Shown here one piece after another: positions 18,362 through 22,748 of a stretch of DNA of 64,000 bases. The stretch is taken from assembly GCA_000165345.1 (NCBI GenBank), contig CM000436.1, positions 608,001 to 672,000 of the forward strand, given 5' to 3'. The notes under the pieces are model-generated. The model did no database searches. It was not told the DNA's origin and saw only the letters and a program-made list of their open reading frames with translations. The position numbers were made by a program, and so were the translations under genes. The first letter of the stretch is position 1, and each line of letters opens with the position of its first letter.

Positions 18362-18745
18362 TCAGTGAGCAACTGGCTGTGACTGAGTTGAAACTGGTTG
18401 TTGCTGGGATTGTGGCTGAGATTGATTCTGATTCTGGTAGAATCCACGGCCTCTACCTCCACGGCCACGTCCTCTCATTCCTCTACCTCTTCCTCTGCCT
18501 CTACCTCTGCGTCTATCACCCTTAACTGGGGCACCATTTGGACCAGAGACATTGACAGCCTTACGACGGCCCTTGTCATCAGTTTCAATTTCATATTCTA
18601 CTCTCTCATCTTGTGCCAAGGATCTGAATCCTTCAACCTTAATATTCTGCTGGTGCACAAAGATATCCTCAGATCCGTCGTCGGGGGTAATGAATCCGAA
18701 CCCCTTAGTCGAATCAAACCACTTGCAAACTCCAGATAAAGGCAT
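18362..18745 (-). CDS. Cold-shock-domain (Y-box-like) protein with an RG/RGG repeat tail
   Basis: [28 protein letters not shown] contains the RNP1-like CSD motif, followed by (RGRG)n and a Q-rich C-terminus. Confidence 0.9.
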
Positions 18746-19984
18746 TTTAACAAGTTTTATAGGTTTCTCTTAAAATCGTTTAAATCCAAAGAATTTACGT
18801 TGTCTAATGGGGTCTAAGAGAAGCTACACTAGTGTAAAATGTGAAATATACTTTACCGCGCAAAGTCTTTTATTAATAATAAAATAAAAAGTGAATATAT
18901 TATATAATCAACTTGAATATATAATATTTAAATATATATATACATATATGTTTATTTATTTATATATATTGAATGGGCAATCCACTTTTCTAAATTTGTT
19001 AACTTTTAATCAACTTGACAAATCGTATTCATAATTACTAATAAAACTAATTGATATATTAACTAATCTTAATATTTATACTAATCAACTTTGCCTTATA
19101 CATCAAATACAGATATATATAATATATTGGAGACGCGTGAGACACGACATTTAGTACCGGCGTACATAGGCGGGTAATTCAGCGCGAAGGGTGGGGAATT
19201 GTCTCAGAACCAATCAATTCTTTATAAGGCAGAGGGTATAAAGCCAAGTTGCAATTTTAAAAGATATACGAAAGAGCTGAATTTAAAAAGAAGTAATGCG
19301 GGTAATAGACATTTCGGGAGCAAAAATTGCTATAAGTGGATCCTAGAGGAGATATATTTGGCGGGAAGCCCACAGGTAAATACCAATGTGTGGGTACTTC
19401 AGCGCCTGGGAGGTTTATTAGTTAGAATGAAAAAAATTGAGGTTGAGTAGACCTAACGGCATTTATGATTTCACTTCTCCTATTGGTAGGTATTCAGATT
19501 CGTATTGCCGGACATGTAATGTAAAAATTAATATTGAGTGCCTGAATCCATGTGGCGCCAAAATTGTATTTTGTGTTGTATGGGCGAGTAATGCAGTAGT
19601 AAGATAATGTTGGTAATAGTAATTTCAGTATAGTAGCGGTAATATTATTGTTAGCAGTAGTAGTATTTATAATAGCAAAGCAGAAGTTGGCTTTAGAGAT
19701 GAGTAACTGCTCTCTATGTCTTTAGGAATTTTACTTGAAGAATTAGACTAAATTTTTAGCATAAAAGACAATGATTTGGCGCGCTGCTAAAAATTTACAT
19801 GATTAAAAATGTCAGACGAAAATGAATTCAGAATAATGAATATACACAAGTGCATATTCATATAGTCAGGATCAGTATATTCTTTAGATAAATTTACATC
19901 GAAGAAATGAGGGGGTTTTGTGTTGTTGGTCAATTAATTAGGTTCAATAAAAAATTGAGCTAATAGTTAATTCTGGATCTCTTT

Positions 19985-21109
19985 CTATATTGAGTTAATT
20001 TTTGATCCTGTTTTGAGCGTATTTTCTGATAAACAAAATCTTTCCAGTAACTAGAAACAGATTGTGAAAAATCAACATGTATTCTGAAATAATGAGTTAA
20101 TTTAGTTGATGGAAAAATATAAGTTACGATGAATTATCACAAAAATAAGATAAAGTTCAGGGAGAAGAAGAAAAGGGAAAGATCGTAGTTAGAAGTCAAC
20201 TTACCTTCTATCGTCAATTACAGCGTTCTGCATTTTCAAAAATGCCATTTCACACTGTTGTTTAGTTTCAAACTCAATGAATGCATATTGAAGAGAGTCT
20301 CCAGTCTTGTAGTCTCTAATAATGTTACAAGATTTTACTTCGCCAAATCTCGAGAATATAAGCTCTAAGTCATCGTCTTGAGTAACTGGATTGAGCTTAC
20401 AAACAAAAAGGACATTTTCTGGAGGTTTCATATCAGCATCAGGAATATCTCCAAGAATCTCTAAGGTTATAGCTCTAGATTTAGCTTCTCTTTCACTAAT
20501 AGAATTTAGAGCTTTAACTTCATCCTGATCATACGTTTGAACCAATGGATCAGTTTCTTCTGGAGGTGAATTAGGTGGAATGATTTCTAGAAGCTGTGGA
20601 GAGTCTTCAAAAGGATCATCCAATATATACGTATGTAGAATCATAACTTTTTGTAAAGGTATAGAATTTTCATCTGTAATAACTTGGTTGAGTTTAGACA
20701 AAATAGGAATCCCTTCCTCAACTTGAGCAAAAATTACATGATTACCATCCAAATGACTTAATTCATCTTTCAGTGTAAAATAAAACTCTGAACCCAAAGA
20801 ATTCTTGGAAATATGATTGACCATTCCTAGAACCCCCATTCTTTTATGCTTAAGTTTTGGTGTAGTTTCAAGTTCCAAAGATATATTATCCTTTTTCTGA
20901 TTACTTAATAACTGATAAAGTGAGGAATTCCCATATTGCTTAGATCTGCCAGTTCTGGCAATGAAATCTTTCTCTATCTTATAAAATTCACAATTATTAT
21001 AGAATTTAAGCTTACAGAGCTTTAGAAAGTTTTCACACGTCTTTGGACAAAGATCCACATTTAAATCAATCACCAAGTCCCCTAAAGTAGTTTCAATTAA
21101 CACAGACAT
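19985..21109 (-). CDS. PPIL4: Cyclophilin-type PPIase plus RRM protein (PPIL4-like), two exons join(20205..21109,19985..20084) on the minus strand
   Basis: It has a PPIase-like domain, then RRM motifs (LFVCKLNP, QYAFIEFE). The apparent stop in ...VIDDRR-TAA is AG|GTAAGT. Splicing to the acceptor ...TTATTTCAG at 20085-86 gives ...DDRR-IHVDFSQSVSSYWKG, the conserved RRM-terminal IHVDFSQSV motif of PPIL4. Confidence 0.8.
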
Positions 21110-21620
21110 GTAAGAATCAAGTTCTTCTTATTGAACTAATCCAAAAATCAATAATCTAAATCTTCATGTTATCAAGTTAATCTCAAATGTATTCCTTTGA
21201 ACTTTAACCTCTAATTTGATTAGACACTTTTTATTAATTATTATGGTTGCTTCTTTATATCTTTAGGCGGGTAATTCCTCACTAAGTGTTACCGGTATGC
21301 ATTTTTTTTATTTCTTAAAAGACTATATTTACCGTCATTTTTTTCATGTGGACAACAAAAAATTAAAAATTGTTAAAAAATATTACATGCTCGTATTTTA
21401 GTAGTAAAAGGAAAGGGAAAGAGAAAACTACAAAATAGGAGAATTTGTAACAGACAATAAACTTCGTAGAATATTACTAATTTATGAGAAAATAATAAAG
21501 TTCAATATTGAATCAAGAAGGGTAGAACAAAAATATTTAAGAATTATTGAGAACTCTTTTCTTTATTTCCTTTGGATTTGCTACTTTAACTGGCTTGAAT
21601 TAATCTGACCATTTCAAAAT

Positions 21621-22748
21621 ATGAGCAAAAAGAATGATGCTCGACCTTGCTCTAAAAGGTTTTTAAAATTTCCAAAAATGGGCAGTTCACTAAAAATATA
21701 CACACAAGGTATGAAAATAATAGTCGATAGTTTTTACTGTTAAGCCAAAAGCCCTCTAGTATTAAATTCTTTTAATATTTATATTGGAATGCAGTAAGAA
21801 CCATAGAAAACGGATAAGCTACTTTTGTCTCAGTAATCTTCATGTATGATTTTGTTTTGATCATCAAAGATCAAGAGATGATCTGCTAAAGAGAGACTTT
21901 GATGGCATAAGTTAGCTTTAATTAACGCTAAAATTTGAATTCCACTAACTATAATACCCCTTTTACAAATTGTATTTTTTTTTTTTTTTTAGAAGAATCT
22001 GAACCTGAAAAATTTCAAGTAAGAAAAAATAGTGCACTTGATAACTTACTTGAGTTATCGTTTCCACCAGTGAGGTCTTTTGATGGAGAAAAAAGGTAAA
22101 GTTAAAAATAATAGCATTTTGCTTGATTTGATTTAGTTTAATTCAAACGATTCTTAATATATATTATACATCAACTATTAATACACTTTTTAGATCATAT
22201 GAATTTCGATACCCAAATAGCAAAAGGTCACTATTCCCATTTGAACTAACACCTAGAACGCTCTGTTGTATAGATAATATTAAAATGGGAGTGAAAACGG
22301 TAAGTATGATAGCCTCAATTTTTCTGGTATCAATCTTATTATTACCTAATTTAATATATCTATTTCTCCCATATTTTCATAGGGAGCTATAATTGGATCT
22401 ATCTTTGGCGGAATCAATGGTGCATACCATGCACTAAAATACAGGAATTATATGGCAATTCCAGTCTTTGCTGTAAGTCAAAAACTAATTCAGAGTCAAA
22501 TTTCGTTAATAATCTTATCCCTTTATTAGATTGGTGGAGCCATTAGTTTTGGATTCTTTCTTGGGTGTGGGATGATAGTTAGATGCCAACCCTCAGAATT
22601 TACCAATTATAAATTTCATAATAAATGTAGTCAGGTCATTTTTCCAATATACTTTAATAAGATTGAAAGAGTTTCCCGCCAAGACTTCAAAATACATGAT
22701 AATTTGAACAATTTCTACAAATTCCAAAATGATAAAATATCAAAATAA
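21621..22748 (+). CDS. ROMO1/Mgr2-family (Tim17 superfamily) small membrane protein, multi-exon join(21621..21708,21993..22095,22194..22299,22383..22472,22530..22748)
   Basis: The spliced product ...CCIDNIKMGVKTGAIIGSIFGGINGAYHALKYRNYMAIPVFAIGGAISFGFFLGCGMIVRC aligns with ROMO1 (SCFDRVKMG...GGTFGTFMAIGMGIRC). Donors are GTATGA, GTAAAG, GTAAGT and GTAAGT; acceptors are T-rich tracts ending in AG. All exons are phase-consistent. Exons 3-5 are confident; exons 1-2 (the N-terminal extension) are less certain. Confidence 0.5.

What the first reader, a model, noticed from the sequence alone, without database searches (positions are those of the whole stretch)
19985..20204. The stop codon of the cyclophilin-RRM gene overlaps a GTAAGT donor; a second exon restores the conserved PPIL4 RRM terminus
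The ORF ends ...VIDDRR-TAA, but the sequence is GAT AGA AG|GTAAGT. A 120-nt AT-rich intron ends at TTATTTCAG (20085-86). The next exon continues in phase with IHVDFSQSVSSYWKGFCLSENTLKTGSKINSI-stop. The residues 'DDRRIHVDFSQSV' form the highly conserved C-terminal strand of the PPIL4 RRM, so the single-exon model truncates the RRM.
Basis: partly seen in the sequence, partly recalled or inferred. Interest (0 to 1): 0.6.

Follow-up and report, generated by a model that had tools for sequence, protein, structure and literature searches.

The report
Known intron in Cryptosporidium cyclophilin-RRM gene
The apparent stop codon of this Cryptosporidium parvum cyclophilin-RRM gene (cgd8_2350) lies inside a real 121-base intron, and a short second exon completes the RNA-binding domain, but newer public annotations already carry this two-exon model, so this is a correct but ordinary annotation fix.

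Summary
The window is Cryptosporidium parvum chromosome 8. The gene is cgd8_2350, a PPIL4-like cyclophilin-RRM gene on the minus strand.

The 302-aa ORF ends ...VIDDRR-TAA, and that TAA is bases 2-4 of a G|GTAAGT donor.
- Exon 1: 21109..20205.
- Intron: 20204..20084, 121 nt, phase 2, ending TTATTTCAG.
- Exon 2: 20083..19960.
- Spliced product: 342 aa, ...DDRRIHVDFSQSVSSYWKDFVYQKIRSKQDQKLTQYRKRSRINY*.

The tail after SSYWK is a frame slip, so the real stop is at 19960-19962, not about 19985. The intron is 121 nt, not 120. The acceptor AG is at 20085-20084.

Evidence for splicing:
- Human PPIL4 aligns without a break across the junction.
- Pfam RRM_1 becomes complete (70/70 positions).
- In the AlphaFold model, RRM strand beta-4 (residues 304-307) lies in exon 2.
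- The same phase-2 GTAAGT intron and the I[HR]VDF[SC]QSV exon occur in all eight Cryptosporidium species I checked, and at the same codon in Vitrella.

The exact 342-aa product is already deposited (QOY39991.1 and others). A 2009 paper already suspected a missing exon. The truncated 302-aa model persists in RefSeq and UniProt, in a 2024 review and in several sister-species annotations.

Verdict: real, correctly interpreted in essence, already known, low interest.

The parts
20205..21109 (-). Exon 1 of cgd8_2350 (ATG at 21109..21107). It encodes residues 1-301 and the first two bases (AG) of codon 302. It contains the cyclophilin-like domain (residues 3-160) and RRM beta1-alpha1-beta2-beta3-alpha2 (residues 233-293).
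   Evidence: Pfam PF00160 E = 2.8e-38; PF00076 starts at residue 234.
20201..20203 (-). In-frame TAA that ends the 302-aa single-exon ORF. It is bases 2-4 of the intron (G-TAA-GT).
   Evidence: The same TAA-in-donor arrangement occurs in all 8 Cryptosporidium species examined.
20199..20204 (-). 5' splice site GTAAGT, preceded by exon bases AG (20206..20205).
   Evidence: The donor is GTAAGT in all 8 species. The same donor type occurs in two reconstructed introns of the neighbouring Romo1 gene.
20084..20204 (-). Spliceosomal intron: 121 nt, phase 2, 29% G+C, with no internal AG apart from the one in the donor.
   Evidence: Intron length varies from 70 to 144 nt across species and is not constrained to multiples of 3. 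Nucleotide identity to C. parvum is 29-60%, against 68-93% for the adjacent exon 1 end.
20096..20100 (-). Branch-point-like TTAAC; the candidate branch A is at 20097, 13 nt upstream of the last intron base. This is an inference.
   Evidence: YTRAY scan. Similar TTAACTCA / TCAACTCA / TACTAAC motifs lie near the 3' end of the orthologous introns. Not tested experimentally.
20084..20092 (-). 3' splice site TTATTTCAG (AG at 20085..20084).
   Evidence: There is a YAG acceptor in all 8 species.
19960..20083 (-). Exon 2 (124 nt). Its first base completes codon 302 (AGA = R). It then encodes IHVDFSQSVSSYWKDFVYQKIRSKQDQKLTQYRKRSRINY and the stop TAG (19962..19960).
   Evidence: The product is identical to deposited QOY39991.1, KAL5366969.1, WKS79488.1 and WRK33988.1. 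The gene span of 1150 nt matches three annotated assemblies.
20068..20079 (-). Codons for H304-V305-D306-F307, the beta-4 strand of the RRM.
   Evidence: AlphaFold2 model secondary structure, E304-307. Alignment to human PPIL4 and to the solved RRM 9dwv_C. Invariant columns.

Best explanation
This is an ordinary GT-AG spliceosomal intron in the Cryptosporidium parvum gene cgd8_2350, the parasite's PPIL4/CYP59/Rct1-type cyclophilin-RRM protein.

The intron is 121 nt, phase 2, at window 20204..20084 on the minus strand. It sits after the second base of codon 302 and begins GTAAGT. The unspliced sequence therefore reads AGG TAA, which looks like a natural ORF end. That is why the ORF-based 2004 annotation of this intron-poor genome called a 302-aa protein.

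Splicing joins AG to A (AGA, still Arg) and continues into a 124-nt exon. This exon supplies RRM strand beta-4 (HVDF), the conserved SQSV...W motif and a roughly 30-residue basic helical tail, giving a 342-aa protein.

Shown here:
- the sequence signals;
- unbroken homology across the junction;
- completion of the RRM;
- conservation of the intron's position, phase and signals in 8 Cryptosporidium species and in Vitrella;
- identity of the product to deposited gene models.

Inferred:
- Actual removal of the intron in vivo. This rests on the published statements that the re-annotated introns are RNA-seq supported.
- The protein's role. By analogy with human PPIL4, the RRM and linker would bind the intron downstream of the branch site in the activated spliceosome.
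For: 1. Sequence: AG|GTAAGT...TTATTTCAG|A, phase 2, with no internal AG.
2. Homology across the junction:
- phmmer against PDB gives human PPIL4 (7qtt_V) at E = 2e-99, aligned over residues 1-317 with 'iddrrihvdfsqsv' identical.
- The PPIL4 RRM structure 9dwv_C aligns to residues 231-310.
- The two tblastn HSPs from Arabidopsis CYP59 and fish PPIL4 abut at one query residue, in different frames, 119 nt apart.
3. Domain completion: RRM_1 1-70/70 when spliced against 1-67/70 unspliced. AF2 places beta-4 at residues 304-307, in exon 2. Exon-2 residues are invariant across 30 orthologues.
4. Comparative DNA:
- All eight Cryptosporidium loci have [AG]|GTAAGT at the same codon, a YAG acceptor and an exon encoding I[HR]VDF[SC]QSV.
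- Intron lengths are 70, 75, 101, 108, 114, 121, 129 and 144 nt.
- Predicted spliced lengths reproduce the annotated lengths for C. muris (419), C. felis (349) and C. canis (341).
- Exon 2 is more conserved than the intron and the 3' flank.
- Vitrella brassicaformis has an 81-nt phase-2 intron in the same Arg codon.
5. Public models:
- The exact 342-aa sequence is deposited as QOY39991.1 (CPATCC_004059) and three others.
- Three assemblies annotate a 1150-nt gene with DNA identical to the window.
6. Literature:
- The 2015 RNA-seq re-annotation added 451 introns (PMC4637869).
- That paper's supplement lists cgd8_2350/CHUDEA8_2350 identity as 0.982. This equals 336/342, not 298/302 = 0.987.
- Krücken et al. 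2009 already proposed 'a missing exon in ChCyp34.5' (PMC2713222).
Against: - No RNA-level data could be examined here. The RNA-seq support is a general statement in the papers, not a junction count for this gene.
- In the protein collection, the exact 342-aa ORF is found only on annotated genomic contigs over 1 Mb. No short, transcript-like contig carries it. The 302-aa ORF occurs on 32 blocks of mostly genomic Logan contigs. There is therefore no independent assembled spliced transcript in hand.
- The donor motif alone is not statistically unusual.
- AF2 confidence in the exon-2 region is moderate (block means 71, 63, 56, 47).
Confidence: 0.95

Rival explanations
1. The single-exon 302-aa protein ending at DDRR is the true and only product. 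The downstream 'exon' is then untranslated 3' sequence that merely resembles PPIL4.
For: - The 302-aa model is the RefSeq/UniProt entry (XP_001388428.1, A3FPY7, K9ME21).
- It is mirrored by annotated orthologues ending at DDRR or DDRK in C. hominis TU502, C. ubiquitum, C. bovis, C. xiaoi, C. ryanae and chipmunk genotype I.
- It is still used in a 2024 review as CpCyP34 (PMC11357558).
Against: - It would leave the RRM without beta-4.
- The downstream ORF is conserved as protein, in the right phase, behind conserved GTAAGT...YAG signals in all 8 species. The intervening sequence meanwhile drifts in length and sequence.
- The four DDRR/DDRK-ending loci I fetched (C. ubiquitum, C. bovis, C. ryanae, chipmunk genotype I) contain the same exon.
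- Newer evidence-based annotations use the 2-exon model.
Confidence: 0.03
2. Both forms exist. Regulated intron retention yields an mRNA that terminates at the TAA inside the donor, producing a beta-4-less, presumably non-functional protein or an unstable transcript. This would act as a way of tuning the level of this spliceosome-associated factor.
For: - The in-frame TAA at intron bases 2-4 is present in all 8 Cryptosporidium species.
- The intron has been kept in a genome where only about 11% of genes have introns (PMC4637869).
- It sits at the same codon as in Vitrella.
- The human orthologue acts in the spliceosome (PMC10208982), and splicing factors are often autoregulated by unproductive splicing (general knowledge).
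Against: - The TAA follows automatically from a consensus GTAAGT donor in phase 2, so its conservation needs no extra selection.
- Vitrella's donor, GTATAC, gives no immediate stop.
- No expression data were examined.
- The intron sequence itself is poorly conserved (29-60% identity), which argues against embedded regulatory elements.
Confidence: 0.08
3. A different 3' splice site or a further downstream exon is used, so the true C-terminus differs from the 342-aa model. For example, a longer SR/RS-rich tail as in other PPIL4/CYP59 proteins.
For: - Other family members carry long charged C-terminal domains. Krücken et al. expected that an SR domain might be found once the model was fixed.
- A 1.2-kb spacer follows the stop.
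Against: - The intron has no alternative AG.
- Exon 2 ends in a stop after 30-46 residues in all 8 species, with similar short basic tails.
- No ORF with K/R/S-rich coding potential is listed between 18746 and 19960.
- Deposited evidence-based models end at the same TAG.
Confidence: 0.02

Closest known systems
C. parvum cgd8_2350 two-exon model (QOY39991.1 / CPATCC_004059; also KAL5366969.1, WKS79488.1, WRK33988.1), with the 342-aa orthologues of C. hominis (CUV07783.1), C. tyzzeri (TRY49723.1) and C. meleagridis (POM84934.1)
   Same: Identical protein (exact-sequence look-up) and identical 1150-nt gene span and DNA. This is the same feature, already annotated.
   Different: Nothing. The only difference is from the older 302-aa records for the same locus (XP_001388428.1/EAZ51468.1, A3FPY7, K9ME21), which stop at the TAA inside the donor.
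Human PPIL4 (spliceosomal cyclophilin-RRM; PDB 7qtt_V, RRM 9dwv_C), Arabidopsis CYP59, S. pombe Rct1/Cyp6
   Same: - Same domain order: N-terminal cyclophilin-like domain, helical linker, RRM.
- About 50% identity over more than 300 residues.
- Identical IDDRRIHVDFSQSV segment.
- In human B^AQR spliceosomes, the RRM and linker bind the intron downstream of the branch site as part of the PRP2 'brake' (PMC10208982).
   Different: - The Cryptosporidium protein has only a roughly 30-residue basic tail in place of the long Lys/Arg/Ser-rich C-terminal domain, and no zinc knuckle (PF00098) as in plant CYP59.
- Its cyclophilin loop 'TGRSKQYGNSS' replaces the conserved 'TGDPTGTGRGGES'.
- Arabidopsis and fish orthologues have no intron at this codon.
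Vitrella brassicaformis PPIL4-like gene (P0014; locus L014)
   Same: It has an intron at exactly the same place and phase: after the second base of the Arg codon preceding IHVDF (CG|gtatac...gtcag|C, 81 nt).
   Different: - The donor is GTATAC, so there is no in-frame stop at the exon end.
- The gene has at least three further introns and a long RD/RS-rich tail.

Membership tests
PPIL4 / CYP59 / Rct1-type cyclophilin-RRM proteins | N-terminal cyclophilin-like (PPIase-fold) domain | tested here: met
   Pfam PF00160, residues 3-160, E = 2.8e-38. Aligned to the human PPIL4 PPIase domain.
PPIL4 / CYP59 / Rct1-type cyclophilin-RRM proteins | Complete RRM C-terminal to the cyclophilin domain, including beta-4 and the conserved DDRRIHVDFSQSV segment | tested here: met
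   Met only by the spliced product. RRM_1 covers 1-70/70. The motif is identical to human PPIL4. AF2 gives the beta1-alpha1-beta2-beta3-alpha2-beta4 order, with beta-4 at residues 304-307. The unspliced model stops at RRM_1 position 67.
PPIL4 / CYP59 / Rct1-type cyclophilin-RRM proteins | Closest solved or annotated relatives are PPIL4/CYP59, not other cyclophilin subfamilies | tested here: met
   PPIL4 scores E = 2e-99. The next cyclophilin scores E = 1.8e-22. Database hits outside Cryptosporidium are named PPIL4 or CYP59.
PPIL4 / CYP59 / Rct1-type cyclophilin-RRM proteins | Long charged (SR/RS/Lys-Arg-rich) C-terminal domain | tested here: not met
   Exon 2 adds only about 30 residues after the RRM, 9 of them K/R, with no SR repeats. 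Tails are short in all 8 Cryptosporidium species. This feature is common but variable in the family, so it does not exclude orthology.
PPIL4 / CYP59 / Rct1-type cyclophilin-RRM proteins | Association with the spliceosome or Pol II CTD, and RNA binding by the RRM | not testable with these tools
   Known for human PPIL4 (PMC10208982). Inferred here by homology only.
Canonical U2-type GT-AG spliceosomal intron | GT donor matching the local consensus, and an AG acceptor after a pyrimidine-rich stretch | tested here: met
   AG|GTAAGT ... TTATTTCAG. Reconstructed introns of the neighbouring Romo1 gene use GTAAGT/GTAAAG/GTATGA donors and TAG acceptors. The length of 121 nt compares with a published mean of 99 nt (PMC4637869).
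Canonical U2-type GT-AG spliceosomal intron | Removal restores an uninterrupted, homologous reading frame | tested here: met
Canonical U2-type GT-AG spliceosomal intron | Position, phase and signals conserved in orthologous genes while the intron sequence and length drift | tested here: met
   8 Cryptosporidium species plus Vitrella.
Canonical U2-type GT-AG spliceosomal intron | Spliced junction observed in RNA | not testable with these tools
   Only indirect evidence: the re-annotation papers say their introns are RNA-seq supported. No transcript contig carrying the spliced ORF was found in the collections.

The most novel reading that the evidence does not exclude
The intron could be an ancestral one, shared in position and phase with the chromerid Vitrella. 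It may have been kept in the otherwise intron-poor Cryptosporidium genome because retaining it terminates translation immediately at the TAA inside the donor and removes RRM strand beta-4. That would give this spliceosome-associated factor a splicing-dependent on/off or autoregulatory switch.
Probability: 0.06. Interest if true: 0.4.

Novelty: already known. Interest (0 to 1): 0.1.

Why it matters
There is little biological novelty. The corrected two-exon model is already in GenBank and CryptoDB-derived sets for C. parvum, C. hominis, C. tyzzeri, C. meleagridis, C. canis, C. felis and C. muris.

The practical value is as curation:
- The truncated 302-aa model, which lacks RRM strand beta-4, is still the RefSeq/UniProt entry (XP_001388428.1, A3FPY7, K9ME21).
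- It is still cited as 'CpCyP34' in a 2024 review.
- It is replicated in the GenBank annotations of C. ubiquitum, C. bovis, C. ryanae and chipmunk genotype I, and probably C. xiaoi. The DNA of the four I fetched shows the same intron and exon.

Anyone expressing, modelling or drug-targeting this cyclophilin from the old record would be working with a broken RNA-binding domain. The case also shows a general trap: a phase-2 GTAAGT donor always creates an in-frame TAA that mimics a genuine ORF end.

Tried and rejected
1. Donor motif statistics. AGGTAAGT occurs 4 times against 1.7 expected, so the motif alone is not evidence. I dropped it in favour of homology and comparative tests.
2. Rfam and tRNA scans of the whole window found nothing. 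No structured RNA explains the region.
3. Independent spliced transcripts. I looked for them through the exact-protein index. The 342-aa ORF occurs only on annotated chromosomes over 1 Mb. The 302-aa ORF occurs on many Logan contigs that are mostly genomic-sized. The one contig under 2 kb could not be retrieved, so there is no RNA-level test.
4. Supplementary files. Those of the 2022 re-annotation paper are not held. The 2015 supplement gives only an identity value for cgd8_2350, which I used indirectly.
5. Ancient pan-eukaryotic intron position. This was rejected: Arabidopsis CYP59 and a fish PPIL4 have no intron at this codon. Only Vitrella shares it.
6. Alternative acceptors or further exons. 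These were rejected: there is no other AG in the intron, and no coding-like ORF lies in 18746..19960.
7. The first k-mer and tblastn exon maps used filters that were too strict and were redone.

Full report
**What is in the sequence**

The finding concerns a minus-strand gene. The ORF 21109..20201 encodes 302 aa and ends ...MQNAVIDDRR-TAA. On the coding strand the end reads GAT AGA AGG TAA GTT. The stop TAA (20203..20201) is therefore bases 2-4 of a GTAAGT hexamer (20204..20199) preceded by AG.

Reading on, the sequence reaches TTATTTCAG (20092..20084). It then reads A ATA CAT GTT GAT TTT TCA CAA TCT GTT....

Joining 20205 to 20083 gives codon AG+A = Arg302, followed by IHVDFSQSVSSYWKDFVYQKIRSKQDQKLTQYRKRSRINY and TAG (19962..19960). 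The product is 342 aa. The intron is 121 nt, phase 2 and 29% G+C. It has no AG except in the donor and at its end. A TTAAC branch-like motif lies 13 nt from the 3' end (inference).

- The intron is 121 nt, not 120.
- The acceptor AG is at 20085-20084.
- The tail after SSYWK ('GFCLSENTLKTGSKINSI') is a slip into the adjacent reading frame. This places the stop about 25 nt too early.

**Is it more than chance?**

The donor octamer alone is not: AGGTAAGT occurs 4 times in the window against 1.7 expected. The homology is.
- Against solved structures, the spliced protein matches human PPIL4 (7qtt_V) at E = 2e-99 over residues 1-317, with 'iddrrihvdfsqsv' identical across the junction.
- It matches the isolated PPIL4 RRM (9dwv_C) over residues 231-310.
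- tblastn of Arabidopsis CYP59 and a fish PPIL4 against the window gives one HSP ending at window 20204 (frame -1). A second begins at 20085 (frame -2) at the very same query residue. That second HSP alone has E = 6e-4 for CYP59.
- Pfam RRM_1 coverage goes from 1-67/70 (unspliced) to 1-70/70 (spliced).
- In a 30-sequence alignment, D299, D300, R302, I303, F307, Q309, S310, V311 and W315 are invariant.
- An AlphaFold2 model (mean pLDDT 75) shows the RRM as beta1 233-239, alpha1 245-255, beta2 258-265, beta3 274-280, alpha2 283-293 and beta4 304-307, followed by a helix at 308-339.

Beta-4 and everything after it are encoded by exon 2. The single-exon protein would therefore lack one strand of the four-stranded RRM sheet.

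**Where the window comes from, and what is already on record**

The best database hits are Cryptosporidium proteins. Exact-sequence look-up finds both versions deposited for C. parvum:
- The 302-aa form is XP_001388428.1/EAZ51468.1 (Iowa II), UniProt A3FPY7 and K9ME21.
- The 342-aa form is QOY39991.1 (CPATCC_004059), KAL5366969.1, WKS79488.1 and WRK33988.1.
- There are 342-aa orthologues in C. hominis, C. tyzzeri and C. meleagridis.

Three annotated C. parvum chromosome-8 assemblies call a 1150-nt gene for the 342-aa product. Their DNA is identical to window 21109..19960 (905 + 121 + 124 = 1150).

The gene is cgd8_2350, listed as 'CpCyP34' with the old accession in a 2024 review (PMC11357558). 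In 2009 Krücken et al. described the C. hominis orthologue ChCyp34.5 (302 aa). They wrote that it was probably not predicted accurately, 'e.g. a missing exon in ChCyp34.5' (PMC2713222).

The 2015 RNA-seq re-annotation added 451 introns to C. parvum Iowa (PMC4637869). Its supplement lists cgd8_2350 against CHUDEA8_2350 at identity 0.982. This equals 336/342 and not 298/302 = 0.987, so the two-exon model was apparently already in use then (inference).

**Comparative test**

I fetched the orthologous loci of C. ubiquitum, C. bovis, chipmunk genotype I, C. muris, C. felis, C. ryanae and C. canis. Every one has the following:
- an ORF ending DDR[RK]-TAA, with the TAA inside [AG]|GTAAGT;
- a YAG acceptor 70-144 nt downstream;
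- a following exon that reads, in phase 2, I[HR]VDF[SC]QSV... for 30-46 residues.

The spliced lengths I predict reproduce the annotated lengths where a two-exon model exists (C. muris 419, C. felis 349, C. canis 341). Four species whose GenBank proteins stop at DDRR or DDRK (C. ubiquitum, C. bovis, C. ryanae, chipmunk genotype I) contain the same exon. Those entries repeat the artefact and do not refute the intron.

Nucleotide identity to C. parvum:

| Region | Identity |
|---|---|
| Last 122 nt of exon 1 | 68-93% |
| Intron | 29-60% |
| Exon 2 | 46-78% |
| 120 nt after the stop | 32-68% |

Intron lengths are not constrained to multiples of three.

**Age of the intron**

Outside the genus, Vitrella brassicaformis has an 81-nt phase-2 intron in exactly the same Arg codon (CG|gtatac...gtcag|C). 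Arabidopsis CYP59 and a fish PPIL4 have none there. The position is thus shared within the apicomplexan-chromerid lineage, or gained twice. It is not pan-eukaryotic.

**Mechanism**

The simplest account is a constitutive U2-type intron. A phase-2 intron that begins GTAAGT necessarily produces xxG TAA in the unspliced frame. An ORF-based caller working on a genome where only about 4% of genes were originally thought to have introns therefore closed the gene there.

The mature protein is a PPIL4-type cyclophilin-RRM. In the human B^AQR spliceosome, the PPIL4 RRM and linker bind the intron downstream of the branch site and help stop PRP2 translocation (PMC10208982). The same role in Cryptosporidium is inferred from about 50% identity and the identical RRM end. 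It is not shown.

The Cryptosporidium protein differs in two ways. It has only a short basic tail instead of a long SR/KR-rich domain. Its cyclophilin loop is degenerate: TGRSKQYGNSS replaces TGDPTGTGRGGES.

**Rivals**
- The 302-aa protein is the real product (about 3%). It is contradicted by the conserved downstream exon and the incomplete RRM.
- Regulated intron retention occurs alongside normal splicing (about 8%). It is not excluded, because I could examine no RNA. However, the conserved TAA is an automatic by-product of the donor consensus, and the intron interior is poorly conserved.
- A different acceptor or a further exon is used (about 2%). It is contradicted by the absence of any other AG in the intron and of any coding-like ORF in the 1.2-kb spacer.

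**Verdict**

The tail sequence, the stop coordinate and one-base details needed correction.

It is already known. It was suspected in print in 2009, and fixed in evidence-based annotations from 2015 and 2022 and in several deposited assemblies.

The residual value is curatorial. The truncated model persists in RefSeq and UniProt, in a 2024 review, and in at least four sister-species annotations whose DNA I show to contain the same intron.

Interest is low.

Noticed in passing
L014 1626..1706 (Vitrella brassicaformis CDMY01000878.1), compared with window 20204..20084: Vitrella's PPIL4-like gene has an 81-nt phase-2 intron in exactly the same Arg codon before IHVDF (CG|gtatac...gtcag|C). Arabidopsis CYP59 (L015) and a fish PPIL4 (L016) have no intron there. 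The Cryptosporidium intron may be an ancestral apicomplexan/chromerid intron that survived genome reduction.
   Followed up: partly
L001, L002, L003, L006 (C. ubiquitum, C. bovis, chipmunk genotype I, C. ryanae); proteins P0002, P0004, P0009, P0011, and P0010 (C. xiaoi, DNA not checked): The GenBank gene models for this orthologue in several other Cryptosporidium species stop at DDRR or DDRK (302-304 aa). Their DNA nevertheless contains the same GTAAGT intron and an IHVDFSQSV exon. Predicted corrected lengths are 342, 333, 341 and 334 aa.
   Followed up: yes
window 21621..22748 (+): The divergently transcribed neighbour is a Romo1-domain gene. A 201-aa product over the annotated 1128-nt span can be reconstructed with four introns:
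- 21709-21992, GTATGA donor;
- 22096-22193, GTAAAG donor;
- 22300-22382, GTAAGT donor;
- 22473-22529, GTAAGT donor.
One C. parvum assembly (L009) annotates only a 63-aa fragment here, while two others call the 201-aa protein, so annotations disagree. Four introns is a lot for this genome.
   Followed up: partly
window 19169..19180 and 21266..21277 (+): The exact 12-mer GGCGGGTAATTC (preceded by TAG in both copies) occurs twice, against 0.02 matches expected by chance. One copy is about 160 nt upstream of the cyclophilin-RRM ATG. The other is in the spacer upstream of the cold-shock-domain gene. It may be a shared promoter element of the GGCGGG / E2F-like kind.
   Followed up: partly
window 18746..19959: A 1.2-kb stretch with no called gene lies between the cyclophilin-RRM stop and the cold-shock-domain gene. 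This is about twice the published mean intergenic length (552-589 bp). It has relatively G+C-rich patches (about 19120-19560) and a TGGCGCCA palindrome near 19552. A spacer of similar length is present in the other species' loci. Rfam finds nothing here.
   Followed up: no
window 18362..18745 (-): A 127-aa cold-shock-domain protein with an RGG/RGR-rich tail and a Gln-rich C-terminus (Pfam CSD in the orthologous loci). It is syntenic next to the cyclophilin-RRM gene in all Cryptosporidium species fetched.
   Followed up: no
window about 20950..20905 (-), residues 53-67 of the protein: The cyclophilin domain lacks the conserved 'GDPTGTGRGGES' loop of PPIL4 and reads 'GRSKQYGNSS' instead. The PPIase/cyclosporin-binding site may be degenerate. 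Krücken et al. 2009 also remarked that this Cyp domain is less conserved.
   Followed up: no
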